The position numbers and the translations under genes are program-made. The notes beneath the pieces were generated by a model. That model saw only the letters and a list, made by a program, of their open reading frames with translations, was not told the origin of the DNA and did not search any database. Source: Bacteroidales bacterium (lineage in GTDB: Bacteria; Bacteroidota; Bacteroidia; Bacteroidales; WRLA01). From it: 64,000 bases of DNA. The stretch spans positions 205,421-269,420 of the forward strand of contig OY781463.1 of the NCBI GenBank assembly GCA_963676725.1, written 5' to 3'. Of this stretch, positions 2,377-29,727 are shown piece by piece (position 1 is the stretch's first letter; each line of letters begins with the position of its first letter).

Positions 2377-5037
2377 CTATTTCATACTAGCTATTTGTTC
2401 TTCCAATATTCTGATTCTCTCAATGGCATCGGCTTGTTTTTTGCGTTCCATTTCCACTACTTTTTCTGGGGCATTGTTCACAAAACGTTCGTTGCTGAGC
2501 TTTTTTTCCACCGATTTTATAAATCCTCGGGTGTATTTCAGCTCTTCATTGAGTTTTTCAAGTTCAGCAGCAAGATCAACTTTATCGCCTAATGGCACGA
2601 AAAATTCCGTAGCACCAACAACAAAAGTTCCGGCAGCAGCAGGTTTTTCGTCTGTATAGCGGAGCTCCTCAATATTGCAAAGCTTTATCAGCATATCGTC
2701 AAAATAGGTGTCGGCAGTTTCGTTTTGGTTTTTTCGGATATGCAGCTCAATGGGTTCTTTATTGGCGATATTTTTTTGTGCCCTGATATTCCGCACGCCA
2801 ATAATCACCTCACGAACTACTTCGAAATTGTCGAGAAGTGCTTTGTTTATGTCATTGGCTTTTGGCATTTCTGCAATCATAATACTTTCGTCATCATTGC
2901 GCTCGGCAAGCAAATGCCAGATTTCTTCGGTAATAAACGGCATAAACGGATGAAGTACTTTCATCAATTTTTCAAAGAAAACAATGGTATGCTTGAGGGT
3001 TTCCGGATCGATACCGCTTCCGTAGGGAGGTTTAATCATCTCTAAATACCAAGAGCAAAATTCATCCCAAATGAGTTTATAAACACCCATTAATGCATCG
3101 CTCATGCGGTATTTTTCGTATTGGCCTTCGATGTCACTGATGGATTGATCGAGTTTGTTTCCGAACCATTCTACTGCAGATTTTGCATATTGTGGCATTT
3201 CTGCATCTTCTTCAATCTTCCAGCCTTTTACCAGCCTAAGGGCATTCCAGATTTTATTGCTGAAATTCCGTCCTTGTTCGCAAAGGCTTTCATCAAAGGG
3301 AAGGTCGTTTCCGGCAGGGGAGGTGAGGAGCATTCCAACACGCACACCATCTGCACCATATTGTTCCATTAATTTTATCGGATCGGGGCTATTGCCAAGT
3401 GATTTCGACATTTTGCGCCCCAGCTTATCGCGTACAATTCCGGTAAGGTATACGTTTTTAAATGGAATTTCTTTGCGGTATTCCAATCCCGCCATTATCA
3501 TTCGAGCCACCCAGAAAAACAGGATTTCAGGGGCTGTTACCAAATCATTGGTGGGGTAATAATAGTTTATTTCTTCATTATCAGGATGACGAATGCCATC
3601 AAAAACGCTTATGGGCCATAACCACGATGAAAACCATGTGTCGAGTACGTCATCGTCTTGTTTCAGATCCGCTTCCTGCAATTCGGGACGATTGAATTCG
3701 GTACGGGCTTTTTGCAGCGCTTCTTCAATTGATTTTGCAACCACCATATCGCCCTCGGGCAAATAATAAACCGGAATGCGCTGTCCCCACCACAATTGGC
3801 GCGAAATACACCAATCGCGCACATTTTCCATCCAATGGCGATAAATATTTTTGAATTTTGGTGGATGGAACTGCACAGTATCATTCATAACGACATCCAG
3901 CGCAGGCTTTGCCATTTCTTCCATTTTCAGGAACCATTGCATCGAAAGCTTGGGCTCAATTACGGCATCGGTACGCTCCGAAAAGCCAACCTTATTGGTA
4001 TAATCTTCTACTTTTACAAGATAGCCTTGTTCTTTCAGGTCTTTGGAAATCTCTTCACGTACATCGAAACGGTCTTTGCCAATGTACAATCCGGCTGCCT
4101 CGCTTAAAGTGCCATCATTATTGAAAATATCGATGCTTTGGAGCTTATGCTTAAAGCCAATTTCATAATCGTTGATGTCGTGGGCAGGGGTGATTTTCAG
4201 GCAGCCTGTACCAAATTCCCTATCCACATATTCATCGAGGATAATGGGAACGCTGCGGTTGATCAATGGAACAATTACTCGTTTTCCGTGCAAATTTGTA
4301 TAGCGCTCATCTTCCGGATGGATGCAAACCGCAGTATCACCCAGAATTGTTTCCGGACGGGTTGTGGCGATTGTAACCCATTCGTCTTTTGTGCCTTCCA
4401 CCTGATAGCGCAGATAATATAATTTTGATTGCAGTTCGCGGTGGATTACTTCTTCGTCGGAAAGGGCAGTAAGAGCCGAAGGGTCCCAGTTGACCATGCG
4501 TACTCCACGGTAGATTAATCCTTTTTGATAAAGATTTATAAATGTGTCAATTACTGAGTCGTAGAGTGCTTCATCCATGGTAAAGCGTGTGCGGTCCCAA
4601 TCGCAGGAAGCACCCAATTTCTTAAGTTGCTCGAGTATGATACCGCCATGTTTTTCTTTCCATTCCCAAGCGTGCTCCATAAATGCATCACGGCTAAGGT
4701 TTTTTTTGTCGATGCCGTCTTGTTTCAGCTTGTTTACTACTTTGGCTTCTGTGGCAATGGAAGCATGATCTGTACCGGGAACCCAAAGGGCATTAAATCC
4801 CATCATGCGGGCACGTCGTACTAAAATATCCTGAATTGTATTGTTGAGCATATGGCCCATATGCAGCACACCAGTTACGTTTGGTGGCGGAATAACCACT
4901 GTATAAGCCGGGCGCTCATCGGGCTGTGATTTAAAATATCCTTTCTTCATCCAGTGGGCGTACCACTTGTCCTCGGTCTGTCCGGGAGTGTATTTGGGAG
5001 CAATATCCATGTGTGCATTTTTTTTAATCGCCTGCAA
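2377..5037 (-). CDS. valS: Valine--tRNA ligase (class I aaRS)
   Basis: HIGH motif (VLHMGHMLN), KMSKS motif (RKMSKSLGN), an editing-domain-sized insertion and a C-terminal coiled coil. The true start may be the second ATG at 5010 ([17 protein letters not shown]). Confidence 0.97.
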
Positions 5038-5158
5038 AAATAGAAACTTATTGGGATAAAGCCTTTAATGATGGGCTACTAAATTTTTTGTCTTGAGGGA
5101 TAGCCTGAAAAAATGCCCCACAATTTGTAAAACAGAGAAGCCTGGCATGATGGATCGC

Positions 5159-5431
5159 ACGAATTTGAGCAAATTAGAGGCGATGGGGAAGAAATAATCA
5201 CGGATCGCATGGAAATAGGTGCGAATCGCAAAGAAACTGCATCTGATCGTAAAGAAATTAAGGCGATCTGCATGGAAATGACCACGGATCGCATGGAAAT
5301 TGACGCGGATCACAAAGAAATGACCACGGATCGTAAAGAAATTGCCTCGGAGCGCTTAAATATTGCAGCGGATTGCATAGAAACGCACAGGGAACGAAAG
5401 GAAATAAGAACGGACTGCATAGAAATACCTA
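5159..5431. repeat. Tandem array of about 13 degenerate 21-nt units (consensus CGGATCGCAWRGAAATnnnnn)
   Basis: Eleven units are exactly in phase at 5201, 5222, 5243, 5264, 5285, 5306, 5327, 5348, 5369, 5390 and 5411. Two weaker units lie upstream (5159, 5180). Seven GATC sites fall between 5153 and 5332. Confidence 0.9.
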
Positions 5432-5520
5432 TTGGTTATACATTCAGTTGGAAGTTTTTATTTAACAAAAATAGTATCTTTATCCCTTTTACTTGCAGCA
5501 CTCTTAATAATCAGGTTAGT

Positions 5521-7764
5521 ATGAATTCTAAGAAACCAAAGAAAAAGCGGATACATTATTTGTATACCTCTTTTAAAATTGCTTCAGTAAAACCCGCTTA
5601 CCTCAGGGGACTTAGGGTGGCATTTTTATTGGCAGTGCCTGTCCTGTTTGGGTTTTATACCAATCAGATGTCGGTGGCATTTGCATTTATGCTGGCTTCT
5701 TTAAATGTTTCACTTATTGATATGGGTGGAAATACATACAGCAAAACGGCCCGTCTCATGCTGATCACTACGCTGCTAAATGCTATTGCTGTTGTGGTAG
5801 CACAATATGCAGGAACGTATTTGATTACGGCCGTTTTTGCTACTGCTGTATGGCTAATGGCTGTGGCGATGCTCGGTTTGCTAGGAAATGCCGGTGTTCT
5901 TATTGCATTCGTGAATTCAGCGCTTTTTGTGATGATTGTGGCAAAGCCCGATATGATGGGCGCCCCTTTAGATACATTATTTATATTTATCCTCGGTGGT
6001 TTTTGGGCGATGCTGCTTTCTCTTATAGCTTGGCCTATAAGACCTTATCAGCCTGTGCGGAAAGCTGTGGCGGCTTGTTATCAGGAAAATGCTTCTTTTT
6101 TAAGGTCTGCGGCACTTTATTATCAGGAGAAGGGAACATATTTGGTTAAACAACCGGCGATCTCAAAGCACAGCAATTTCAGGCAAAAAATAGATGCCGC
6201 CCATGCAATGCTTTCGCATCAGAGGCAGGGGCGTTACAATCGATCCGATGCAGAGGATGCATTGATTATTCTCTTACAGGGCATTGCTAGAGATCATCGC
6301 AGCATTTTGGTTCTTTTGGACTGGCTGAATAAAAGCTACCCACTTGTTAAGCCGGAGAAATCAGAGAAAATTTATGAATTTTTAATGGCTATTGCAGAAG
6401 TTTATGAAGGGATTGCTGAACTGATATTGCATTCAAAAATTCCGGCAAAGCCATTATTTGAGAAAGTTGTGAAGATTGAAAAAAATTACGTGAATTCAAA
6501 AAATGAGCTTACTGCTGAAGCAATTGAAGGAGTATCTAGAGTTTTGGAGCGAATTTTAGCGAATGTGAAAAATGAAATCAGAATAGCTGCGCAACAAAAT
6601 CCTGATTTCAGTCTTCAGAAAATTAGTTTGGAGCATGACCCTTTGATGAAGGATGAAAAAGCTGGTTTTTTTACGCTTTTGCGCGATAGCTTCAGCATTC
6701 ATTCTGCTATTTTTCGCCATGCTTTACGGATTGGTATTACATCAGCCCTTGCTGTTTTTCTTGCTGCAGCTTTCAATCTTCCCAGGGGTTATTGGATGCC
6801 TTTAACGGTTGTTGTAATTATGGCTCCGGATTTTGGGGGCGCATTTATGGTGCGAACGATTCAAAGGGGAGTTGGTACTATTCTCGGCGGTTTATTCGCA
6901 GTACTGCTTTTAATCTTTATACACCATCAGATTGTGGTTCTTGCTATGCTGCTCTTGCTGACAATCATTGCCATTTCGCTGCAACCCATTAATTATGCCT
7001 TATTTGTGTTTTTTCTAACGCCACTAATCGTTGTAATGTATAGTATCAGTGGAACGGCAGACTGGCATATCCCATTCGATCGGGTTTTAGATACTTTGGC
7101 AGGAATGCTTCTTGCCATAATTGGCAGCCATTTGCTCTTGCCCGTATGGGAGCGGCATCGTTTTCCTGCTCAATTATCTAAATTATTGGAAGCAAATGCC
7201 ATATATTTTGAGGCAATTCTTGCTGTTTTTTCAGATGCAGATATTGATCCCAAAGTACTAAGAAAGCTCAATAGAAATATGGAGCTGGCAGCATCAAATA
7301 CACGCGCATCCATTCAACGCAGCTTAAACCAACCCGGCTTAAACCAAGATCTGATTGCTCCCATGCTGCGTTTGCAAAGTGCTTCGGCTCGCTTTATGCA
7401 GTCGTCCCTTTCTCTGCATTACTATGTGGGAATGAATGCATATAAACAGGATAAAAATCAAATTATCGCTAAAGCGGGAATAATAATAATTGATCTTTTG
7501 AAAAGTATGTCCGCAACATTATTAATGCATCAAAAAAAAGATCATCAAGCAAAATCCTTGTTTCTCGATGCCTTCGAACGATTGGAAGCAAAAGCAGATG
7601 AACTGGATGTACTTCTGGCCAATATAACCGCCGAAAATCATCTGTATAAAGAGTTTCAACAACTGGCAGAACTTGAGCGCAATATGATGTTTGAGCTAAT
7701 CAATTATTTATCAATATTTGATGAAGTGCCTCTTCCTGAAACTGCATCTTATTCGCTTGCTTGA
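5521..7764 (+). CDS. FUSC/YccS-like (fusaric-acid-resistance family) integral membrane protein
   Basis: Two blocks of about 5-6 hydrophobic helices are separated by a long helical soluble linker, the typical FUSC duplicated architecture. I start at ATG 5521 (MNSKKPKKKRIHY) because the 5209-5520 extension lies entirely inside the 21-nt repeat array. Confidence 0.75.
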   Translation: MNSKKPKKKRIHYLYTSFKIASVKPAYLRGLRVAFLLAVPVLFGFYTNQMSVAFAFMLASLNVSLIDMGGNTYSKTARLMLITTLLNAIAVVVAQYAGTYLITAVFATAVWLMAVAMLGLLGNAGVLIAFVNSALFVMIVAKPDMMGAPLDTLFIFILGGFWAMLLSLIAWPIRPYQPVRKAVAACYQENASFLRSAALYYQEKGTYLVKQPAISKHSNFRQKIDAAHAMLSHQRQGRYNRSDAEDALIILLQGIARDHRSILVLLDWLNKSYPLVKPEKSEKIYEFLMAIAEVYEGIAELILHSKIPAKPLFEKVVKIEKNYVNSKNELTAEAIEGVSRVLERILANVKNEIRIAAQQNPDFSLQKISLEHDPLMKDEKAGFFTLLRDSFSIHSAIFRHALRIGITSALAVFLAAAFNLPRGYWMPLTVVVIMAPDFGGAFMVRTIQRGVGTILGGLFAVLLLIFIHHQIVVLAMLLLLTIIAISLQPINYALFVFFLTPLIVVMYSISGTADWHIPFDRVLDTLAGMLLAIIGSHLLLPVWERHRFPAQLSKLLEANAIYFEAILAVFSDADIDPKVLRKLNRNMELAASNTRASIQRSLNQPGLNQDLIAPMLRLQSASARFMQSSLSLHYYVGMNAYKQDKNQIIAKAGIIIIDLLKSMSATLLMHQKKDHQAKSLFLDAFERLEAKADELDVLLANITAENHLYKEFQQLAELERNMMFELINYLSIFDEVPLPETASYSLA

Positions 7765-21150: not shown

Positions 21151-24036
21151 CTATTCTTCGATATAGCTTTCAATTGGTGCACAAGTACACATTAAATTCC
21201 GATCGCCAAAGGCATCGTCAATGCGCGCTACAGGTGGCCAGTATTTATCCTCTTTCAGGCCTGCCACAGGGAATGCAGCTTGTTCGCGGCTGTATGGTTT
21301 GTCCCATTCTTCGGCAGTTAGCGTCAGAACTGTATGCGGGGCGTTCATAATCAGGTTGTTTTCCTGATCTGCTTTGCCTTCTTCAATTGCACGGATTTCT
21401 TCACGAATGCTGATCATTGCTTCCACGAAACGATTGAGTTCGTGATAAGGCTCACTCTCAGTGGGTTCAACCATTAATGTACCATGAACGGGGAACGCAA
21501 CCGTAGGCGCATGGAAACCATAGTCCATCAGGCGTTTGGCAATGTCAATTACCTGCAAATGAGCACTCATGTGGAATTTATTGCAATCCAAAATCATTTC
21601 GTGGCCAACGCGTCCGTTTTTGCCGCTATAAAGGATTTTATAATGATCTTCCAATGCTGATTTTAGATAATTTGCATTTAAGATTGCCATTTTTGTCGCT
21701 TCAGTAAGCCCACGTCCGCCCATCATTTTAATATAACCATAAGAAATTGGAAGGACTAATGGACTGCCATAAGGAGCCGAAGCAACTGCTGAAATTGCAT
21801 TTTTGCCGCCAGCTTCCAGTATCGGACTTCCGGGAAGGAATTCCTGAAGATGGGCAGCAACACCAATAGGACCTACACCGGGGCCACCGCCACCATGAGG
21901 TATGGCAAAGGTCTTGTGTAGGTTCAGGTGGCAAACATCTGCACCAATATGTCCGGGGCTGGTCAAACCAACCTGAGCGTTCATATTGGCTCCGTCCATA
22001 TAAACTTGGCCTCCATTTTCATGGATGATGTCCATCATTTCTAGTATGCCTTCTTCAAAAACTCCATGGGTCGATGGATAAGTAATCATCAATGCAGCGA
22101 GATCGTTTTTGTGTTCCTCGGCTTTTGCTTTCAGGTCGGCCATATCTACATTGCCACGATCATCACAAGCAACCACAACAATTTTCCAGCCGGCCATATG
22201 GGCACTGGCAGGGTTTGTTCCATGGGCAGATGAAGGAATCAGGCAGATATTACGATGGCCTTCATTGCGGCTTTCATGATACGCACGAATAACCAGCAAT
22301 CCGGTATACTCTCCAGAAGCGCCTGAATTGGGCTGGAACGACATGGCTGCAAAACCCGTTACTTCGCAAAGGTCTTTCTCAAGCTCTTTGATCAGTTCCA
22401 GATATCCTGCTGCCTGATTTTGAGGTACAAATGGGTGAATGCAACCAAATTCCGGCCAGCTTAATGAAAAGAGTTCACTGGCAGCATTCAGTTTCATGGT
22501 GCAGCTTCCCAAAGGAATCATACTGCGGTTTAAGGATAAATCTTTGATTTCCAGTCTTTTCATATATCGCATCATCTCTGTTTCGGAATGATAGCTGTTA
22601 AAAACAGGATGCGTTAGATAACTGCTCTTGCGATGGAGTGCTGCAGGAATTGTTGTAATCAGTTGGCATTCTTCCGGAATACAAACAAATTCTGAAAAAG
22701 CGACACCATTTGCATCGGCAAAAATCTTTAAAATAGCATTGATGTTGGTCAGCGTAGTGGTTTCATCAATACTAATGCCGATGGTTTGCTCGTCGATATA
22801 GCGGAAATTCATTTTTTGTTGCTCCGCTGCTTCACGAATGAAGGACATTTTTGCGTTCTCAGGAAGAGTGAATTCGAGCGTATCAAAGAAAAATTCATTA
22901 TTTTGTTTGAAACCGTATTTTGCTGCTTCCTGATTCAGCACGCCGGTAAGTATATTGATATGGCGTGCAATTTCACGGATGCCATTAGGGCCATGATATG
23001 CGGCATACATTCCGGCCATGCTGGCGAGAAGTGCTTGTGCCGTACAAATATTTGATGTTGCTTTTTCGCGTTTGATATGTTGCTCACGGGTTTGCAAGGC
23101 CATGCGTAATGCGGTATTGCCATCAGCATCTTTTGAAATGCCAATAATTCTGCCGGGCATATGTCTTTTGAATTTATCGCTGCTGGCAAGATAAGCTGCA
23201 TGTGGACCACCAAAACCCATTGGAATACCAAAGCGTTGTGTTGATCCAACAACAATATCAGCGCCCCATTCTCCCGGAGGAGTGAGTAGGGCAAGGCTCA
23301 TAATATCGCAGGCAACAGCAAGGAGCAAGCCTTTTTCGTGCAGGCTTTCTGCAAATTTGCTGTAATCTATAACATCGCCGCGTTCACCGGGATACTGAAC
23401 CATCGCAGCAAAATAGCTTTCGTCTGCTTCAAAAGTGGCAACATCGCCGAGAATTACATCAATGCCTAAAGGAAGAGCACGGGTTTGTATTACTGCAATA
23501 CTTTGTGGAAAAAGATTGTTGCTGACAAAGAATTTATTCACGCCGGCTTTAACAGCTTTTCTTGGACGGGCATTATAAGCCATAATCATGGCTTCGGCTG
23601 CTGCTGTACCTTCATCCAAAAGGGAGCAGTTTGCCATTGGCATGGCTGTTAGGTCAGAAACCATCGTCTGGAAATTCAACAGGGCTTCTAAACGGCCTTG
23701 TGAAATTTCTGCCTGATAGGGCGTATAAGCTGTGTACCAGCCCGGATTTTCCAACATATTGCGCAGGATTACACCCGGCGTAATGGTATTGTAGTACCCC
23801 AAACCGATAAAGGACTTAAAGATTTGGTTTTTTGAAGCCAGTTCCTTCAAGTGGTTAAGGTATTCGTATTCATTCATCCCGTCGGCAAGTTTCATAGGCT
23901 CGTTTAACCTAATTGCCGGGGGAACAGTTTGATCAATAAGCTCATCGAGTGTAGAGACACCGGTTTTTTCGAGCATTTCGGCAATCTCTTGACCGCGAGG
24001 GCCATTGTGCCGTTTTACGAAATTATCCGTGATCAT
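21151..24036 (-). CDS. gcvP: Glycine dehydrogenase (decarboxylating), single-chain P-protein of the glycine cleavage system
   Basis: 961 aa. N-terminus reads FVKRHNGP. Contains the [21 protein letters not shown] motif and the PLP-lysine motif [18 protein letters not shown]. Confidence 0.97.
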
Positions 24037-24281
24037 TGTATTGAATTTTAATTGTTATAAATATTGTATCTCCCTTAAAAAGGCAAAGGTAGAATTTTTC
24101 AATTCAATCGTGAATGAAATAACAATAAAATGGAATTGTGAAGGAAAATGGGTTTTTAGAACAAATTTTCAAAGACTAACCCACTAATTTTTCCGAAGGC
24201 TTTAGAATTTTTCCAAAATCCGAACCTTAGAAAAGGGTAGTGGATTGGAAATTTGATGGATTGAAAACAATATTTTAAAAA

Positions 24282-24667
24282 GTACAGCAGTCCTATAAGC
24301 GGGGTTCTGTATCCCCTGGAGGGGATTTCTATCATTTATCTGGGACTTGCGTCACCGCAAGCCTCAATCAGCCTACCCTTCCCGACTTCCCGAAAGAAAC
24401 AGAACGGGCCGCTCTGCTCAAAAGAATCAGGATATATTTGGCCTTTCATCTCATAAGGTTTACCCCCGGCCTGTGTCGCCACAAACCGGCGTGAGCTCTT
24501 ACCTCACGTTTTCACCCTTATCCCGAATGAATGGGACGGTTATTTTCTGTGGCACTCGCTGTAGTCCGATAAATCGAACCCCTTCCCGTTAGGAAGTATG
24601 ATGCCCTGCGCTGCCCCGACTTTCCTCATTCCGAAAAAACGAAACGCGATAGAACAGACTGCTGTAC
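24282..24667 (-). ncRNA. rnpB: RNase P RNA, bacterial type A
   Basis: The reverse complement contains GAGGAAAGTCGGGGC (P4 5' strand), GCCACAGAAAATAACCGTCC, GGATAAGGGTGAAAACGTGAGGTAAGAGCTCACGC and ACAGAACCCCGCTTA (P4 3' strand). The P1 stem GTACAGCAGTC/GACTGCTGTAC sets the ends at 24667 and 24282. Confidence 0.9.
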
Positions 24668-24734
24668 TGGCGACAAAATTAATACATTTTTGTGCCAATA
24701 AAGGCTTTTTCATTATTTTGCGGCAAAAAGACAA

Positions 24735-25229
24735 ATGCAGAAAATCGGATTGATCTCGGATACACATGGAAGCCTGCCCGAAAAGCTTGGTGGTTTTTTG
24801 GAACATTGCGACCAAATATGGCATGCAGGCGATATTGGTTCGATGGATGTGGCCGAAAAGCTGAGGGCCATGGCTCCACTAATCGCTGTTTATGGGAATA
24901 TCGATGGGCAGGGGATTCGTATGATTTTTCCGGAACATCAGCTTTTTATGTGCGAAGGGGTGAAAGTATATATGACGCACATCGGAGGATATCCCGGAAG
25001 ATACGATCCTCGTGCAATTGCATATATCCAAAAAGAACAACCAAAGCTTTTTATCTCCGGACATTCTCATATACTCAAGGTAATAAACGATCCTAAGAGG
25101 AAATTGCTGCATATGAACCCGGGGGCAGCAGGTAATTATGGCTTTCATAATGTACAAACAGCCCTGCGTTTTGAAATTGACGGGAGCAATATTCGCGAAC
25201 TGGAAGTGTTTGAGGCGCCTAGGCGATAA
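24735..25229 (+). CDS. YfcE/MJ0936-type metallophosphoesterase
   Basis: 164 aa with the calcineurin-like motif series: ISDTHG, WHAGDIGS, VYGNIDG, MTHIGG, ISGHSH. Confidence 0.85.
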   Translation: MQKIGLISDTHGSLPEKLGGFLEHCDQIWHAGDIGSMDVAEKLRAMAPLIAVYGNIDGQGIRMIFPEHQLFMCEGVKVYMTHIGGYPGRYDPRAIAYIQKEQPKLFISGHSHILKVINDPKRKLLHMNPGAAGNYGFHNVQTALRFEIDGSNIRELEVFEAPRR

Positions 25230-25250
25230 AAAAGCCCCCAGATGCGGGCT
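25169..25250 (+). repeat. Direct repeat copy A (last 20 codons of the metallophosphoesterase gene plus terminator-like hairpin)
   Basis: It aligns without gaps to 27067-27148 with 14 mismatches in 82 nt (hand alignment). It encodes RFEIDGSNIRELEVFEAPRR*, followed by the hairpin AAGCCC..GGGCTT. Confidence 0.85.
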
Positions 25251-25266
25251 TATAATTAATGTGGTG

Positions 25267-25551
25267 TTATTGATTTTGTCTTTTGATAATTTGCCTAAAC
25301 ATATCGTATGTAGCACTAATACACATCACGGCAAAGATTGTCCATGGGATATTGGTTTCATCGGGATATGTGAAGACGAGTATCGTACTACAAATCCCAC
25401 CCGCACCGAAAAAACACTAAAGGGTATGTGGCGTGAATCCTAAAAGGTTGAACTTATGCCCTGAGCGCTTGCTCCATAGTGAGATAATGATCCAGAGTAT
25501 TGTAAAAGCGCTAAAAACAATAATGCGGACGGTGATTTGAGAATATGTGAT
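25267..25551 (-). pseudogene. Remnant of a small membrane-protein gene (no start codon, in-frame TAG)
   Basis: One minus-strand frame reads ITYSQITVRIIVFSAFTILWIIISLWSKRSGHKFNLLGFTPHTL-TAG(25417-25419)-CFFGAGGICSTILVFTYPDETNIPWTIFAVMCISATYDMFRQIIKRQNQ*. It is bounded upstream by another TAG and has no ATG at its head. Confidence 0.35.
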
Positions 25552-25617
25552 CTAATCTGGTGTCGGATTATAAAAAGCGACGGGCAAAGAATGCATTCTA
25601 CCCATCGCTTATTTGTT

Positions 25618-25818
25618 TTAAGCATCTTTTTTGTATTTCCTGTTTTTTGTTATGTGGTAGATTAATACAAATATAAGATATACAACCACAACGAATATAA
25701 ACGAGGTGAGCAATGATTCAATTAAGGAGTGTTTGGACCAATAGAATTCCATTAAAAACATCACAATAAATGTAACTATTGCTCTTAGGAGCATTATTTT
25801 TTTATGAGGATTTACCAT
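25618..25818 (-). CDS. Small two-helix membrane protein (66 aa)
   Basis: Two hydrophobic helices (IVTFIVMFLMEFYW and FIFVVVVYLIFVLIY) and a basic C-terminus. It lies 19 nt downstream of the lipoprotein gene on the same strand. Confidence 0.5.
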   Translation of the reverse strand: MVNPHKKIMLLRAIVTFIVMFLMEFYWSKHSLIESLLTSFIFVVVVYLIFVLIYHITKNRKYKKDA

Positions 25819-25837
25819 GTTTCTTATTGTAAAATTT

Positions 25838-26584
25838 CTACTTGGCTTGAATTGCTATTTTGATCCCTTCGATTGCGGACATCACAGGAGCTCCAACTAA
25901 AGAGCCGACAATGCCTCCAAAAAATGCTCCGCCAACAGCTCCTTTTGCATCTTCAAACAATATATCCCAAAATCTTGGATCAACATCTGCATAAGCTGAT
26001 TTTGTGCTATTTGCTAGTAATAATCTCCAGTCATTTAAGTTTTCGTGCCAATAAATATATGAATTTCTTGCAACACTACACACTGCTCCAATTTCATTAG
26101 AATAATTAGTTTTAGATGCATCATCTTCTATTTTACTTAATTTTTCATCAAAAATTTCATACGAACAAATGCCATCATTTTTAATGTCCAATATTCTTAA
26201 TATAAGGGATTTGTACTCTTGATCGTCTATAGTGTTTATAAGTGAGTCAATGTTTAATGTGGTCGTGCCAACCTGTAAAGCATTATAAATACTGTCAATG
26301 AAGTTAGGTTGAATATTATATTGTTCAATTAGAAATAATCGGCTATTTACTATTGCGCAGTTAATATTTGATGAAGTTGCTGATGCAGATAATTGTTCTA
26401 ACGCAGTATATGTATTAGCCAAAGAAGCATTATGAGCAGAGCCTACAATAGTTGAGGTGATGCTTGTGACTTCTTTAAAGTTTAGTTGTTCATTATCAGG
26501 AGTGTATTCTTCTTTCGTGCAGCTACTTAATGAAACTGAAAATGCAGTTAAAATTAAAAGTATGATTTTAATAAATAATTTCAT
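25838..26584 (-). CDS. Lipoprotein with C-terminal glycine-zipper segment (248 aa)
   Basis: Lipobox signal peptide (MKLFIKIILLILTAFSVSLSS-C), a helical-looking body, and a C-terminal GAVGGAFFGGIVGSLVGAPVMSAIEG segment. Confidence 0.65.
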   Translation of the reverse strand: MKLFIKIILLILTAFSVSLSSCTKEEYTPDNEQLNFKEVTSITSTIVGSAHNASLANTYTALEQLSASATSSNINCAIVNSRLFLIEQYNIQPNFIDSIYNALQVGTTTLNIDSLINTIDDQEYKSLILRILDIKNDGICSYEIFDEKLSKIEDDASKTNYSNEIGAVCSVARNSYIYWHENLNDWRLLLANSTKSAYADVDPRFWDILFEDAKGAVGGAFFGGIVGSLVGAPVMSAIEGIKIAIQAK

Positions 26585-27066
26585 GATTGTTAAAATTGAA
26601 TTATTTAAATTTCGAAAAATAGAATACTAATTTGTGAGCATTCCAATAACGAATTCTTAAAAATATCAAGAGATTGAATTTTAATTTATTTCTGCTGTTA
26701 ATTTATACCTCCATTCTTTATTTATTATAAATTTATTGATTTCCGGAAATACTATTTAACAATATTGTATTTGCAAATGTATATATTGTTATTATAATAT
26801 CCAAGAAATTGTGTATTTTTTTTTTTTTGGTGTATTTTGTGTATTTTTGTTAGTAAGTCCTGAAAGTCAATAGATAAGATTTTTTAATTATTGTGATTGT
26901 GATTGTTATTGAAGCTAATTTGAGTGCGTAGGTTTACTTTTGTATTGTTAACCGTGATAATAATTAGTTAGTATTGTAATTTGCAATGTTAGTATGAATT
27001 TATTAATATATAGCACTGTATGTATATGATTCAGATCAAAAACCTGTCAGGATTAAAAAGAACCGA

Positions 27067-27148
27067 TTTTGAAATTGACCGGAGCAATATCCGCGAACTG
27101 GAAGTATTGGAAGTACCGAGAAGGTGAAAAAGCCCACAGATGCGAGCT
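27067..27148 (+). repeat. Direct repeat copy B (orphan 3' fragment of a metallophosphoesterase gene plus hairpin)
   Basis: From 27065 it encodes DFEIDRSNIRELEVLEVPRR* with no upstream reading frame. 16 of 19 residues are identical to the intact gene end, and the hairpin is conserved (AAGCCCACAGATGCGAGCT). Confidence 0.85.
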
Positions 27149-27268
27149 GATATTCAGATATTGTAGATGGTGGATTTCACTATTGATCAAATACCTTGAT
27201 AAATAATATGTTCCGATAATACTGATTCCGACAATAATTATGGCGCTGACTAGATTTAATCCATTATC

Positions 27269-28078
27269 TTAAAGGCCATTGTTTCCCGGAGTCGTTACTT
27301 GCCCAACGCCGCTGCGGTTTACTTGAAAAGCGATGTCTAAGCTCCAGCCAACACGAACAGGCTGTCCGTCTTTTTGTGCCGGAATCCATCTGATTAGTTT
27401 CAACAAACGCATTGCTTCTTCTGTGCATCCGCCACCAAGGTCTTTTTCAACAATTACATTGCTGCTATTGCCGCTGGTTTCAACAATAAACTTTAGCGTA
27501 ACAGTGCCCCTGATCCCTAAACGGCTGGCTGCCTCAGGGTATTGAAGTTGTTCGCTCAGGAATTGTCCAAGTTTTTTGCCATTAGGGAAATCCGGTGTAG
27601 GGATGCTATTGGCTTTGCGAAAGGGGTAAATAACAAAATTTGTGTCGTTTGCAAGATCCAAATTGGGAATTTGATTATAGCCCCTGCGCTTCATTTGCTT
27701 TTTATACTTACGTACATGAAAAGGGATTTCCAAAACTTGTTTCCCTTTTACTTTTTTGCCATTGCTCAGTGCAGGCAGCCAGCAGATTTTTTTCATAATC
27801 CTAATGGCTTCCTTATCAATTTCCGGATCAACAGATTGTGAAATGCTATAATCAATCATCTGCCCTTTTTCATCAATCTCTACGATGATACGCACATCGC
27901 CGGAAATATTGTTTTCCAAAGCTTTTTCTGGATAAACCATCTCCATCGAAAAGAAATCGTGTAACATCTTTTTATTGTCTACAGTCGAAACACTTCTGTT
28001 CTGTGCATTTAATAAGCTTGAAGACAGAAAGAGTGCTATCGTAAGGATTAAAGTCTGATTAATAATATTTAGTCTCAT
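27269..28078 (-). CDS. Protein with two TonB C-terminal-like domains
   Basis: ATG at 28078 gives a signal/anchor sequence, MRLNIINQTLILTIALFLSSSLLNAQ. There are two copies of the TonB_C pattern: YPEKALENNISGDVRIIVEIDEKGQ...ICWLPALSNGKKV and YPEAASRLGIRGTVTLKFIVETSGN...IRWIPAQKDGQPV. Confidence 0.75.
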   Translation of the reverse strand: MRLNIINQTLILTIALFLSSSLLNAQNRSVSTVDNKKMLHDFFSMEMVYPEKALENNISGDVRIIVEIDEKGQMIDYSISQSVDPEIDKEAIRIMKKICWLPALSNGKKVKGKQVLEIPFHVRKYKKQMKRRGYNQIPNLDLANDTNFVIYPFRKANSIPTPDFPNGKKLGQFLSEQLQYPEAASRLGIRGTVTLKFIVETSGNSSNVIVEKDLGGGCTEEAMRLLKLIRWIPAQKDGQPVRVGWSLDIAFQVNRSGVGQVTTPGNNGL

Positions 28079-28458
28079 TGCATGGGGGTTTTGAATCCCT
28101 AAAATACAAATAATTTTATTTTTAGCAAGGCATAAAAAGCATTTACTAATAGAACTTAAGTTGTACATCACATTATTAAAGATATGGATGTCGTGACTTT
28201 TATATAATTTGTGCTGTATTGTGTATTTTGATTGTCTTTCTGTCGGTTGGGCGTAGAAATACAAATCTTGTTATCAGTAAATAGGCCTTGGTACATAGTC
28301 AGCAAGATCCTATCAAGAATCCAGAACCTTCCCAAGGCTATATCAATCCATCATCGGCCTTCCTTCATTTTTAGTATATTTGCATTACTGAGTTTCGGAT
28401 TGAATGATTTCTGCAATAAACCAAACGATGGCTGAATTTAAAAGATCAATAATATCCT

Positions 28459-29727
28459 ATGAAAATCCATAAACAGTATTTATTTTATAGTCTAATATTT
28501 GGGTTTGCAACACTCTTATTGCTTTTTACTTCCTGCACAGGTCTCAATAAACTAAGCTCCTATAATTTTGCGTCCTCCTATATGGAGAAAAACGCCAGTA
28601 AAAAAGCTGAGTTTAGATTGTTTCAAGTTTGCAACGATAGTGTAAGGGCTTATGTTTCAGTCGATTTATCAGGTTTTGAGACGCGTGAAATCGCACAATC
28701 AGGTCTCTATCTCGATTATAGCCTGCGTTTTTTTGTATATGATGAAGCGGATATTTCCAAGGTTCCTGATACTTTTATATTTCATCACACAGAATTGCCT
28801 GCTTTATTGGCTTCCACTGCCATTGAAAATGAATGCAGCTTTCTATTGAAGGATGAAGGGGCTTATTTGATCGAATTACGGATTAAAGACTTGAATTCTG
28901 AGAAGGAAATCCGTCTTTTACGCATGTTGGATAATAAAGGACATTCGCCGGCCTCTTCATTTTTACCGGTAAATCAGCAAGGCGATATTCTCTATAATGA
29001 TGACCGTTTCAGAAAAGGCAAGACAATAGAACTGCAAACCGCACTTCCACAAGAAAGCTTTTGGGTGTATTATTTTTCTCAGGATGTTCCGATAGCCGAG
29101 CCGCCTTTTGTTTATGATGATGGAAAAATAGAAGCATTAAGGCCTGATTCGCTCTTCAGGATTTATCGCAACATAAATCATAATGTGACATTCACGCCAT
29201 TTGCTCAAGGGGCTTATTTTATCCTGAGCGATACAAACAGCAAACAGGGCTATACAGCCATGGTATTTGGCAATGCCTACCCAAAAATTCAATATCCTAT
29301 TGAAATGCTGATGCCATTACGTTATATCAGCTCCGCAAATGAGTTTGCCGAATTGCTGCAATACCGAGATGCAAAATTGGCAGTAGATTCTTTTTGGGTG
29401 GCCAATGCAGGAAATCCTGAGCGTGCCCGAAGGCTTATTTCAACTTACTACGGAAGGGTAGAACGCGCCAACGAATTGTTCTCCTCATGGAAGCAAGGTT
29501 GGCAGACCGATAGGGGCCTTATATATATAATGTATGGTGAACCGCATATTGTTTATAAAAGTCCCAATGCGGAGAGCTGGATTTATGGGGAAGAAAGCAA
29601 TTATAAATCCATAAGGTTCGATTTTCAGCGCATCGATAATCCGCTCAGCAAAACAGATTTTAAATTATTGAGACAGCCGGAATACAAATCATCATGGTAT
29701 TATCAGGTCGACCGTTGGCGGCGATAA
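28459..29727 (+). CDS. GWxTD domain-containing protein
   Basis: Signal/lipoprotein-like N-terminus (LLFTSC) and a C-terminal GWQTDRGLIYIMYGEP motif, the GWxTD signature. Confidence 0.85.
   Translation: MKIHKQYLFYSLIFGFATLLLLFTSCTGLNKLSSYNFASSYMEKNASKKAEFRLFQVCNDSVRAYVSVDLSGFETREIAQSGLYLDYSLRFFVYDEADISKVPDTFIFHHTELPALLASTAIENECSFLLKDEGAYLIELRIKDLNSEKEIRLLRMLDNKGHSPASSFLPVNQQGDILYNDDRFRKGKTIELQTALPQESFWVYYFSQDVPIAEPPFVYDDGKIEALRPDSLFRIYRNINHNVTFTPFAQGAYFILSDTNSKQGYTAMVFGNAYPKIQYPIEMLMPLRYISSANEFAELLQYRDAKLAVDSFWVANAGNPERARRLISTYYGRVERANELFSSWKQGWQTDRGLIYIMYGEPHIVYKSPNAESWIYGEESNYKSIRFDFQRIDNPLSKTDFKLLRQPEYKSSWYYQVDRWRR

What the first reader, a model, noticed from the sequence alone, without database searches (positions are those of the whole stretch)
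25169..27148. AT-rich 1.8-kb islet bracketed by diverged duplicates of the metallophosphoesterase gene 3' end
The last 20 codons plus the terminator hairpin of the intact gene (25169-25250) recur at 27067-27148, with 14 mismatches in 82 nt and no gaps. The changes are mostly synonymous or conservative (FEIDGSNIRELEVFEAPRR versus FEIDRSNIRELEVLEVPRR), so copy B is an orphan gene end from a diverged allele. Weak homology continues into the 3' end of a convergent small membrane-protein gene on both sides (ISATYDMFRQIIK versus IIGTYYLSRYLIN). The DNA between the copies is much more AT-rich than its surroundings. It holds a decayed membrane-protein gene with an in-frame TAG, a two-gene cassette and about 480 nt of non-coding DNA with a T13 tract (26816-26828). 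This is the footprint of insertion or replacement by foreign DNA through recombination at the gene's 3' end. No integrase is left.
Basis: seen in the sequence. Interest (0 to 1): 0.6.

Follow-up and report, generated by a model that had tools for sequence, protein, structure and literature searches.

The report
Swappable lipoprotein cassette slot with orphan gene end
The AT-rich islet is a real, genus-wide "slot" behind a phosphoesterase gene where two-gene cassettes (a surface lipoprotein plus a tiny membrane protein, probably a toxin and its antidote) are gained, lost and swapped between species, and the orphan copy of the gene's end marks the slot's far edge.

Summary
Positions 25169-25254 and 27067-27152 match at 71 of 86 bases without gaps; shuffled sequence gives at most 49. 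The DNA between them is AT-rich and holds a broken membrane gene, a two-gene cassette and a 480-nt leader with a T13 tract.

This is not a recent private insertion.
- **Same site in sister species:** it is empty in one, holds one cassette plus an orphan gene end in two, and holds two tandem modules, each with its own orphan, in the fourth.
- **Cassette core moved horizontally:** 25660-26560 has synonymous divergence of 0.19-0.29 from one sister species. The flanking genes show 1.8-2.0 or saturation. Cassette GC3 is 0.23-0.34 against 0.40-0.48.
- **Cassette is functional:** dN/dS is 0.29.
- **No local recombinase:** the nearest tyrosine recombinase gene lies about 157 kb away.

The 248-aa product is a lipoprotein with a surface-export motif and a C-terminal glycine-zipper hairpin. 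It belongs to a large unannotated family (1130 clusters) that is nearly always followed by a small two-helix membrane protein. One distant member sits on a small plasmid.

Best reading: a polymorphic, probably toxin/immunity, cassette slot reshuffled by homologous recombination on conserved handles. The toxin function and the origin of the first duplication are inferred, not shown.

The parts
24280..24665 (-). RNase P RNA (class A). Conserved left neighbour that fixes the locus frame in all five species.
   Evidence: Rfam RF00010, 241.8 bits, E 3.5e-78. 86.5% identical to G002.
24735..25229 (+). Intact metallophosphoesterase gene (164 aa), single copy per genome.
   Evidence: Pfam Metallophos_2, E 2.2e-30. 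One match per genome in 31 of 41 related genomes. dS 2.0 and dN/dS 0.09 against G002.
25169..25234 (+). Repeat copy A (R_A): the last 20 codons, the stop and an A-run of the intact gene.
25232..25251 (-). Hairpin A. Intrinsic terminator for the convergent minus-strand genes; its T-run is the A-run that follows the phosphoesterase stop codon.
   Evidence: Terminator scan: 6-pair stem followed by TTTTAT.
25267..25605 (-). Pseudogene of a 112-aa membrane protein ('mem') with two in-frame TAG codons (25417-25419, 25552-25554). It is intact in sister species G001 and G002.
   Evidence: Translation. Global alignment to the G001 protein scores z 74. The family is found only in this genus. Both TAGs are shared by the second strain.
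25575..25610 (-). Strong terminator hairpin of the cassette operon. It overlaps the start codon of mem.
   Evidence: 14-pair stem followed by a T-run.
25618..25818 (-). 66-aa protein with two transmembrane helices; putative immunity or partner protein of the lipoprotein.
   Evidence: Hydropathy shows two helices. 77-78% identical copies in G001 and G002 only. 30% identical homologue sits downstream of a 37%-identical lipoprotein in an unrelated context. dS 0.29 against G002.
25838..26584 (-). 248-aa lipoprotein. It has a lipobox (LSSC), a K-E-E motif after the Cys, an all-helical body and a C-terminal glycine-zipper helical hairpin. Putative surface toxin.
   Evidence: No Pfam, NCBIfam, PADLOC or PHROG match. 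AF2 model with pLDDT 68 and pTM 0.70, ten helices. No fold match in PDB. Profile search finds 1130 clusters. dS 0.19 and dN/dS 0.29 against G002. GC3 0.229.
25660..26560 (.). Recently exchanged cassette core, 86-100% identical to sister species G002 in 60-nt windows.
   Evidence: Sliding identity and per-segment identity.
26585..27039 (.). AT-rich leader (GC 0.23). The left part (5' UTR) is variable. The right ~330 nt is conserved in all five leaders of the genus. It holds a conserved TAnnTTTG box on the minus strand (26774-26781) and a poly-T tract (26816-26828) whose length differs in every leader.
   Evidence: No RNA covariation.
27040..27132 (+). Orphan copy B (R_B) of the phosphoesterase gene end. 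The clean part is 27067-27127; a decayed extension runs upstream.
27131..27148 (.). Hairpin B, a decayed copy of hairpin A.
   Evidence: 3 mismatches in 26 nt to hairpin A. Not called as a terminator.
27190..27265 (-). Fragment of the 3' end of a second mem-type gene. It abuts the stop codon of the TonB_C gene.
   Evidence: Translation. Similar to the G001 mem protein at z 5.5.
27269..28264 (-). Protein with two TonB_C domains. Conserved right neighbour of the slot in all five species.
   Evidence: Pfam TonB_C, E 5.5e-30. Synteny.

Best explanation
The islet is one state of a hypervariable cassette slot that lies between the metallophosphoesterase gene and a TonB_C gene in this Bacteroidales genus.

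Each module reads, on the plus strand: a copy of the phosphoesterase gene end (R), a terminator, one or two small membrane-protein genes, a lipoprotein gene, and an AT-rich leader that carries the promoter and ends at the next R.

What the comparisons show:
- The slot is empty, single or double in sister species.
- The lipoprotein body and its small partner gene differ between genomes that are 93-97% identical in the flanks.
- The same cassette core is shared by two species whose flanks are saturated at synonymous sites.

What I infer:
- Cassettes are exchanged by homologous recombination with DNA from related lineages.
- The conserved handles are R and mem on one side, and the signal-peptide coding region, the leader and the orphan R on the other.
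- R-by-R crossovers give loss (the empty site) and tandem gain.
- The orphan R is the scar of the first one-sided or Campbell-type event that put a module behind the gene without destroying the gene's end.

Likely function (inferred, about 55%): the lipoprotein is a surface-exposed, membrane-attacking antibacterial toxin and the small two-helix protein is its immunity factor. The slot would then be a polymorphic weapon locus.
For: Slot states:
- G003: the gene end is followed directly by gene X.
- G002 and G004: one module, then an orphan R, then X.
- G001: two modules, each ending in an orphan R.
- Window (G000): one module, then orphan R_B.

Swap between close relatives: G002 and G004 are 96.3-96.5% identical up to a point inside mem. 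They match again from about codon 24 of the lipoprotein gene. In between they carry different lipoproteins, 249 and 276 aa, each only about 25% identical or less to other family members.

Horizontal exchange: the window and G002 are 92% (lipoprotein) and 89% (66-aa gene) identical. MPE is 71%, gcvP and mem are 76%, and the leader is 68%. dS is 0.19 and 0.29 for the cassette, against 2.0 (MPE), 1.8 (gcvP) and saturation (TonB_C).

Foreign composition in every species: GC3 is 0.23-0.27 for the lipoproteins and 0.31-0.37 for the small genes, against 0.40-0.48 for host genes.

Functional maintenance: dN/dS is 0.29.

Junction inside R: the orphans of G001, G002 and G004 share 6-8 mismatches in the first 24 nt but only 0-2 in the last 37 nt.

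No recombinase: the nearest integrase match is about 157 kb away.

Two-gene module conserved at long range: a small two-helix ORF lies downstream of family members at 37% identity and below.

Hints of a toxin/immunity pair:
- G001 keeps the 61-aa gene intact but only about 10 codons of the lipoprotein gene.
- One family member sits on a ~5-kb Rep3 plasmid with MazE/PemK.
- 132 of 145 family members have a glycine-zipper tail.
- The K-(D/E)2 surface-export motif follows the lipidated Cys (sequence; motif from PMC5080379).
- The family is patchy: it is absent from all 34 other genera sampled.
Against: - No killing or protection has been shown. The lipoprotein has no known toxin domain and no fold match.
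- A rapidly evolving surface antigen or phage-receptor decoy would give the same polymorphism.
- The G004 cassette has no separate small gene.
- The origin of the first R duplication is not resolved. No outgroup keeps the synteny, so the empty site in G003 may be ancestral or a later R-by-R deletion.
- R_B is oddly well conserved: 4-5 of 61 bases differ from the sister species' intact ends, while the neighbouring leader differs by 20-32%. Simple vertical descent of a dead fragment does not explain this.
- Only five species and one extra strain are available.
Confidence: 0.6

Rival explanations
1. The modules are integrase-less, cis-mobilisable elements. They are integrated by a site-specific recombinase encoded elsewhere (by an ICE or IME). 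The att site would be the last ~40 nt of the phosphoesterase gene. R_A and the intact ends would be attL, and the orphans attR. Tandem arrays would arise by repeated integration.
For: - Direct repeats made of a gene's 3' end, with the gene kept intact, are the classic signature of site-specific integration.
- In G001, G002 and G004 the last 37-43 nt of intact and orphan copies are nearly identical, while the orphans' first 24 nt are different. This looks like a core plus an arm.
- G001 has a tandem array and G003 an exact empty site.
- The genome has ten tyrosine recombinase genes.
Against: - No recombinase lies within about 157 kb.
- In the window the two copies share no identical run longer than 14 nt.
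- The swap breakpoints between G002 and G004 lie inside mem and the signal-peptide region, not at R.
- The exchanged core shared by G000 and G002 also ends inside genes.
- No copy of the cassette was found in phage or plasmid collections.
Confidence: 0.2
2. An old local tandem duplication of the segment 'gene end, hairpin, mem end' arose in situ. A cassette landed between the copies, and both copies then simply decayed. No allele from another lineage is involved.
For: - The repeat covers the gene end, the hairpin and the start of the convergent gene, as one contiguous duplicated block.
- Hairpin B is closer to the genome's own hairpin A (3 of 26 mismatches) than to the sister species' hairpin.
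- The excess of synonymous differences can be produced by change in the selected copy A alone.
- A second cassette of the same family, elsewhere in this genome, also lies between duplicated convergent gene ends.
Against: - A dead copy of that age should be as diverged from the sister species as the flanks are (24-32%). R_B is 4-5 of 61 from their intact ends.
- The mem fragment behind R_B resembles the sister-species protein, not the window's own.
- The junction between the leader and the orphan is shared with sister species, so the event was not private to this genome.
Confidence: 0.12
3. The cassette is a variable surface-antigen or phage-receptor-decoy locus, not a weapon. Polymorphism would be driven by phage or predator pressure, and the poly-T tract would give on/off switching.
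For: - The lipoprotein has a predicted surface-export motif.
- Bodies are hypervariable behind a conserved signal peptide.
- The poly-T tract length differs in every leader.
- No toxin domain was found.
Against: - The tight, long-range linkage to a small two-helix membrane protein.
- One species retains that gene alone.
- A family member is carried on a small plasmid.
- All three fit a toxin/immunity pair better.
- The poly-T tract is the same length in the two strains available.
Confidence: 0.25

Closest known systems
Genomic islands integrated at the 3' end of a gene, with a displaced orphan gene end (attL/attR direct repeats)
   Same: The island is flanked by direct repeats made of the gene's 3' end. 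The gene stays intact. A relative shows an empty site. Tandem occupancy occurs. Composition is AT-rich.
   Different: There is no integrase in or near the islet (about 157 kb to the nearest). Modules are only 1-1.9 kb. Exchange breakpoints fall inside genes rather than at the repeat. The repeats in this genome are 17% diverged, with no long identical core.
Cis-mobilisable elements (CIMEs) of the Streptococcus thermophilus ICESt1/ICESt3 family (named from my own knowledge)
   Same: They are integrase-less, bounded by att-like repeats at a gene's 3' end, and can sit in tandem.
   Different: No cognate ICE or recombinase has been identified and no mobilisation has been shown. Homologous recombination explains the observed breakpoints.
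BcpT/BcpI of Phocaeicola vulgatus (PMC9308784)
   Same: A Bacteroidales surface lipoprotein toxin with a very small immunity gene immediately downstream, carried on a small mobile plasmid with a toxin-antitoxin pair. One distant member of the family studied here sits on a ~5-kb Rep3 plasmid with MazE/PemK.
   Different: No sequence match was found (tblastn against plasmids gave nothing). BcpT is 499 aa and is activated by proteolysis. BcpI is a lipoprotein, not a two-helix membrane protein. No activity has been tested here.
Polymorphic toxin loci with orphan modules (CDI cdiA-CT/cdiI, Rhs; PMC3482391) and SitA/SitI lipoprotein toxins of myxobacteria (PMC5562445)
   Same: A conserved 5' handle, a variable body with a cognate small gene, horizontal exchange, an orphan 'immunity' gene in a relative, and recombination-driven replacement.
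   Different: Here the orphan fragment is the end of a neighbouring housekeeping gene, not of the toxin gene. The variable part is the middle of the protein and the C-terminal glycine zipper is conserved. No known toxin domain is present.
Glycine-zipper membrane-active proteins (Caulobacter CdzC/CdzD, PMC5380434; entericidin lipoproteins, named from my own knowledge)
   Same: A glycine-zipper segment is the likely membrane-active part, and a small membrane immunity partner is present.
   Different: No homology was detected. Pfam glycine-zipper models score below cut-off. The export route differs (lipoprotein pathway rather than type I secretion).

Membership tests
Site-specific integrative island at a gene 3' end | Recombinase (integrase) gene inside or next to the element | tested here: not met
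   No such ORF lies between gcvP and the rRNA operon. The nearest PF00589 match is at genome position 389591, about 157 kb from the islet.
Site-specific integrative island at a gene 3' end | attL and attR share an identical core | tested here: inconclusive
   In the sister species the last 37 nt of intact and orphan copies differ at 0-2 positions. In the window 11 of 37 differ, and the longest identical run is 14 nt.
Site-specific integrative island at a gene 3' end | Empty site in a relative that joins the two flanks exactly | tested here: met
   In G003 the intact gene end is followed by the same sequence (gene X) that follows the orphans in G001, G002 and G004. An R-by-R deletion would look the same.
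Site-specific integrative island at a gene 3' end | Excised circular form or precise excision | not testable with these tools
Polymorphic toxin / immunity locus | Small cognate gene immediately downstream of the variable protein, conserved as a pair | tested here: met
   The gap is 19 nt here. Small two-helix ORFs lie downstream of family members at 37% identity and below, in other contexts. G004 is an exception.
Polymorphic toxin / immunity locus | Different variants at the same site in close relatives, exchanged horizontally | tested here: met
   Three lipoprotein types occur among genomes that are 93-97% identical in the flanks. Cassette dS is 0.19-0.29 against 1.8-2.0 for the flanks.
Polymorphic toxin / immunity locus | Recognisable toxin domain, or demonstrated toxicity and protection | tested here: not met
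   No Pfam, NCBIfam, PADLOC or PHROG family and no fold match. Toxicity cannot be tested with these tools.
Bacteroidota surface-exposed lipoprotein (LES-bearing) | SPII lipobox followed by K-(D/E)2 or Q-A-(D/E)2 after the Cys (PMC5080379) | tested here: met
   The window protein reads LSSC-TKEE. Sister variants read C-KKEE, C-KKED and C-KKNDD. Surface exposure itself was not tested.
Pfam glycine-zipper families (PF13441, PF13488, PF05433) | Score above the curated cut-off | tested here: not met
   There is no hit for the window protein at E <= 0.1. The paralogue and a distant member hit PF13441 below cut-off, at 19.8 and 18.6 bits against a cut-off of 28.9.
Whole-gene tandem duplication | A second full or near-full copy of the phosphoesterase gene | tested here: not met
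   There is one match per genome. The orphan covers at most about 30 codons.

The most novel reading that the evidence does not exclude
A large, unannotated Bacteroidota family of surface lipoproteins with a C-terminal glycine-zipper hairpin, each paired with a tiny two-helix membrane protein, is a new class of interbacterial toxin/immunity module. It would spread without its own recombinase, travelling with copies of its neighbours' gene ends and terminators that act as portable homology arms. It would therefore insert between convergent genes without damaging them. The second cassette in this genome, also bracketed by duplicated convergent gene ends, would be another instance.
Probability: 0.3. 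Interest if true: 0.7.

Novelty: new variant of a known kind. Interest (0 to 1): 0.5.

Why it matters
If the reading is right, this gives a name and a testable function to a protein family of more than a thousand sequence clusters that every database now calls hypothetical. It also adds a chromosomal, recombinase-free route of weapon exchange to what is known about competition among Bacteroidales.

The locus is a clean natural experiment. Five species share the same frame, with empty, single, double and 'immunity-only' states, and synonymous divergence differs about ten-fold between the cassette and its flanks.

For genome annotation, the finding shows that an orphan fragment of a housekeeping gene's end can mark an actively reshuffled slot rather than a dead insertion scar.

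Tried and rejected
- **Chance or artefact:** rejected. Shuffles reach at most 49 of 86, a second strain assembly is colinear and sister species carry orphans.
- **Dispersed repeat:** rejected. R occurs only twice in the genome.
- **More copies of R elsewhere:** exact-pattern scans of genome and metagenome collections found only the four sister genomes plus chance hits.
- **Known families for all cassette proteins:** nothing above cut-off in Pfam, NCBIfam, PADLOC or PHROGs.
- **Phage or plasmid origin of this cassette:** no tblastn hit.
- **Fold recognition:** the AF2 model is moderate (pLDDT 68). The best Foldseek E-value against PDB is 0.76, so the fold is uninformative.
- **Structured RNA in the conserved leader plus R:** no Rfam hit. 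RNAalifold gave an unfavourable covariation term and only 3 compensatory pairs.
- **The orphan as a small gene:** its frame is open for 30-37 codons. Only the window has an ATG, and the sister species have at most a TTG. Not convincing.
- **X as a diverged paralogue of mem:** no detectable similarity, z -1.0.
- **Polarising the empty site with outgroups:** synteny downstream of the gene is not kept outside the genus.
- **A third example of bracketing repeats (locus L055):** the ~200-nt repeat there is a dispersed intergenic element that is also found after the next gene. It does not count.
Full report
**1. The observation**

The window carries two copies of an 86-nt segment, at 25169-25254 and 27067-27152. 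They match at 71 of 86 bases with no gaps. In 20 shuffles of 24000-28500 the best ungapped 86-mer never exceeded 49 matches. The segment occurs nowhere else in the 5.19-Mb genome.

Copy A is the last 20 codons, stop codon and A-run of an intact 164-aa metallophosphoesterase gene (Metallophos_2, E 2.2e-30). A hairpin follows, which scores as an intrinsic terminator for the convergent minus strand. Copy B is an orphan.

Within the 20 codons the copies differ at 12 bases. Seven changed codons are synonymous and three are not.

The stretch between the copies is 0.307 GC against 0.406 for the window. Reading leftwards on the minus strand, it holds:
- a 248-aa lipoprotein gene (25838-26584);
- a 66-aa two-helix membrane protein gene (25618-25818);
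- a strong terminator (25575-25610);
- a 112-codon membrane-protein gene ('mem', 25267-25605) broken by two in-frame TAG codons.

To the right of the lipoprotein gene lies a 480-nt leader of 0.228 GC with a T13 tract. After copy B come a decayed hairpin and a 75-nt fragment of a second mem-type gene end. This fragment runs straight into the stop codon of a TonB_C gene.

A second strain assembly is 99.56% identical over 12 kb with no indel and shares both TAG codons.

**2. The same site in relatives**

The window is G000:C1:205421-269420. Four other species of the genus are held (G001-G004, all 'MAG: Bacteroidales bacterium'). All share the frame gcvP, RNase P RNA, phosphoesterase, variable region, TonB_C.

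| Genome | Layout after the phosphoesterase gene end |
|---|---|
| G003 | 66-aa membrane gene X, then an AAA_14/DUF4143 ATPase gene, then TonB_C |
| G002 | hairpin, intact mem, 61-aa gene, 249-aa lipoprotein gene, AT-rich leader, orphan gene end, X |
| G004 | as G002, but with a different 276-aa lipoprotein and no separate small gene |
| G001 | module 1 keeps mem and the 61-aa gene but only about 10 codons of the lipoprotein gene. After an orphan end comes module 2: its own terminator, a 94-aa membrane gene, a third 248-aa lipoprotein, a leader and a second orphan end. Then X |
| G000 (window) | one module, then orphan R_B, decayed hairpin, mem fragment |

The sequence after the orphans in G001, G002 and G004 is the sequence after the intact gene end in G003. 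G003 is therefore the empty site. It may be ancestral or the product of a crossover between repeat copies. Outgroups cannot decide, because synteny downstream of the gene is lost outside the genus.

**3. What is old and what is recent**

The flanks of G001-G004 are 93-97% identical to one another, yet the four genomes carry different cassettes. G002 and G004 part company inside mem and rejoin at about codon 24 of the lipoprotein gene.

The window's species is much more distant. Its identity to G002 by segment:

| Segment | Identity to G002 | dS against G002 |
|---|---|---|
| gcvP | 76% | 1.8 |
| phosphoesterase | 71% | 2.0 |
| mem | 76% | - |
| leader | 68% | - |
| TonB_C | - | saturated |
| lipoprotein gene | 92% | 0.19 |
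| 66-aa gene | 89% | 0.29 |

In 60-nt windows the high-identity block runs from about 25660 to 26560. It ends inside the 66-aa gene on one side and inside the signal-peptide region on the other.

So the cassette core passed between these lineages long after they split, and recombination ended inside conserved coding sequence. Cassette dN/dS is 0.29, so the genes are kept by selection.

In every species the lipoprotein genes have GC3 of 0.23-0.27 and the small genes 0.31-0.37. Neighbouring host genes have 0.40-0.48. Mem and X are host-like.

**4. The repeat itself**

The orphans of G001, G002 and G004 are nearly identical to one another. Against the intact ends they show 6-8 mismatches in the first 24 nt but only 0-2 in the last 37 nt. 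A step like that fits a recombination junction inside the repeat better than even decay.

The window's copy B is different. It is intact-like over its whole length and differs from the sister species' intact ends at 4-5 of 61 positions. It differs from its own copy A at 12 of 61.

It is followed by a hairpin and a mem fragment, not by X. That fragment resembles the sister-species mem (z 5.5) rather than the window's own (z 0.8). Hairpin B, however, is closer to the window's hairpin A.

The leader between the cassette and copy B is 20-32% diverged from all sister leaders. I cannot fit these rates to one simple history. Either copy B arrived separately from a lineage near G001-G004, or it is under some constraint at the DNA level.

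The excess of synonymous differences does not by itself prove a foreign allele. Change in the selected copy A alone would produce it. The low divergence of copy B from the sister species is the stronger argument.

**5. Mechanism**

No recombinase gene lies between gcvP and the rRNA operon. The nearest Phage_integrase match is about 157 kb away. Both observed exchange breakpoints fall inside genes, not at the repeat.

I therefore favour homologous recombination on conserved handles. These are R and mem on the left, and the signal-peptide region, the right 330 nt of the leader and the orphan R on the right. Misaligned R-by-R crossovers would account for the tandem array in G001 and for loss in G003.

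The first duplication needs a one-sided event, either homology-facilitated illegitimate recombination or Campbell-type insertion of a circle that carried a gene-end copy. That step is inferred.

A trans-acting site-specific recombinase remains possible (about 0.2).

**6. What the cassette encodes**

The lipoprotein has a lipobox followed by T-K-E-E. This fits the K-(D/E)2 surface-export signal of Bacteroidota (PMC5080379). The AF2 model (pLDDT 68, pTM 0.70) is all-helical, and its last two helices form the glycine-zipper hairpin. It has no fold match in PDB.

No Pfam, NCBIfam, PADLOC or PHROG family fits any cassette protein.

A word-based search found only five close relatives. A profile of seven family members found 1130 clusters at E <= 0.001 and 182 at E <= 1e-10. 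All those looked up are called 'hypothetical'. Of 145 full-length hits, 132 have at least two GxxxG motifs in the last 70 residues.

Members at 37% identity and below are again followed by a small two-helix ORF. In one case that ORF is a 30%-identical homologue of the 66-aa protein. One member lies on a ~5-kb Rep3 plasmid with MazE/PemK.

Among 41 related genomes the family is present only in this genus. G001 keeps the small gene without its lipoprotein.

This pattern resembles known toxin/immunity pairs. BcpT/BcpI (PMC9308784) is the nearest Bacteroidales analogue. No homology to it was found, and no activity has been tested. A variable surface antigen is the main functional rival.

**7. Leader**

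The right part of the leader is conserved in all five leaders. It has a TAnnTTTG box on the minus strand at 26774-26781 and a poly-T tract just upstream of it in the sense of transcription. The tract length differs in every leader: T13 here, and other lengths or interrupted tracts in the sister species. It does not differ between the two strains. There is no evidence for a structured RNA.

**8. Verdict**

The orphan is a diverged-allele gene end, and the islet does contain horizontally exchanged, compositionally foreign DNA at a site that is empty in a relative.
- The structure as a whole is an old, shared, actively reshuffled cassette slot. It is not the scar of one integrase-mediated insertion.
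- I rate it a new variant of a known kind, with moderate interest.

Noticed in passing
G000:C1:4460000-4462000 (locus L061, 4008-5898): A second, distant member of the lipoprotein family (270 aa, L061 4575-5387) has its own 76-aa two-helix partner (4327-4557). It lies between a Beta_elim_lyase gene and a convergent T9SS-tail gene. It is bracketed by direct repeats (4008-4151 and 5756-5898; 91% identical over 91 nt). The repeats hold the lyase gene's last codons, a terminator hairpin and the last ~13 codons of the T9SS gene. A 38-nt piece of the lyase gene recurs at 4162-4199. The hairpin plus T9SS end is multicopy in sister genomes, so the meaning is ambiguous.
   Followed up: partly
window 25417-25419 and 25552-25554: The broken mem gene is interrupted only by two TAG codons, with no frameshift. 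Both are shared by the second strain. The protein is otherwise well conserved against its intact sister-species orthologues.
   Followed up: partly
window 26816-26828 and the matching place in L040, L036, L038: The poly-T tract upstream of the putative cassette promoter has a different length or interruption in each of the five leaders. This may tune expression.
   Followed up: partly
window 26830-27040: About 210 nt of non-coding DNA between the poly-T tract and the orphan gene end is 75-85% conserved across the genus. That is higher than the coding flanks. No RNA family or covariation was found.
   Followed up: partly
L040 (G001) 4058-4240 and about 4250-4290: Sister species G001 keeps the 61-aa partner gene intact but only about the last 10 codons of the lipoprotein gene. 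This looks like an 'immunity-only' state.
   Followed up: yes
L057 and L058 (ENA metagenome contigs of about 5 kb): A distant family member (P0018, 250 aa) lies on what looks like a small circular Rep3 plasmid with a MazE/PemK pair. An uncalled ~60-aa two-helix ORF follows it.
   Followed up: partly
window 25575-25610: The 14-pair terminator hairpin of the cassette operon contains the start codon of the mem gene. The same N-terminal sequence is kept in G001 and G002.
   Followed up: no
L023 (G003) 4617-5804: The species with the empty site has an AAA_14/DUF4143 ATPase gene inserted between gene X and the TonB_C gene. The other species lack it.
   Followed up: partly
L028-L035 (Logan contigs carrying P0005): All eight contigs start 273-275 nt upstream of the lipoprotein gene, and two begin with a (TG)n run. 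This suggests an assembly-breaking repeat just upstream of that cassette.
   Followed up: no
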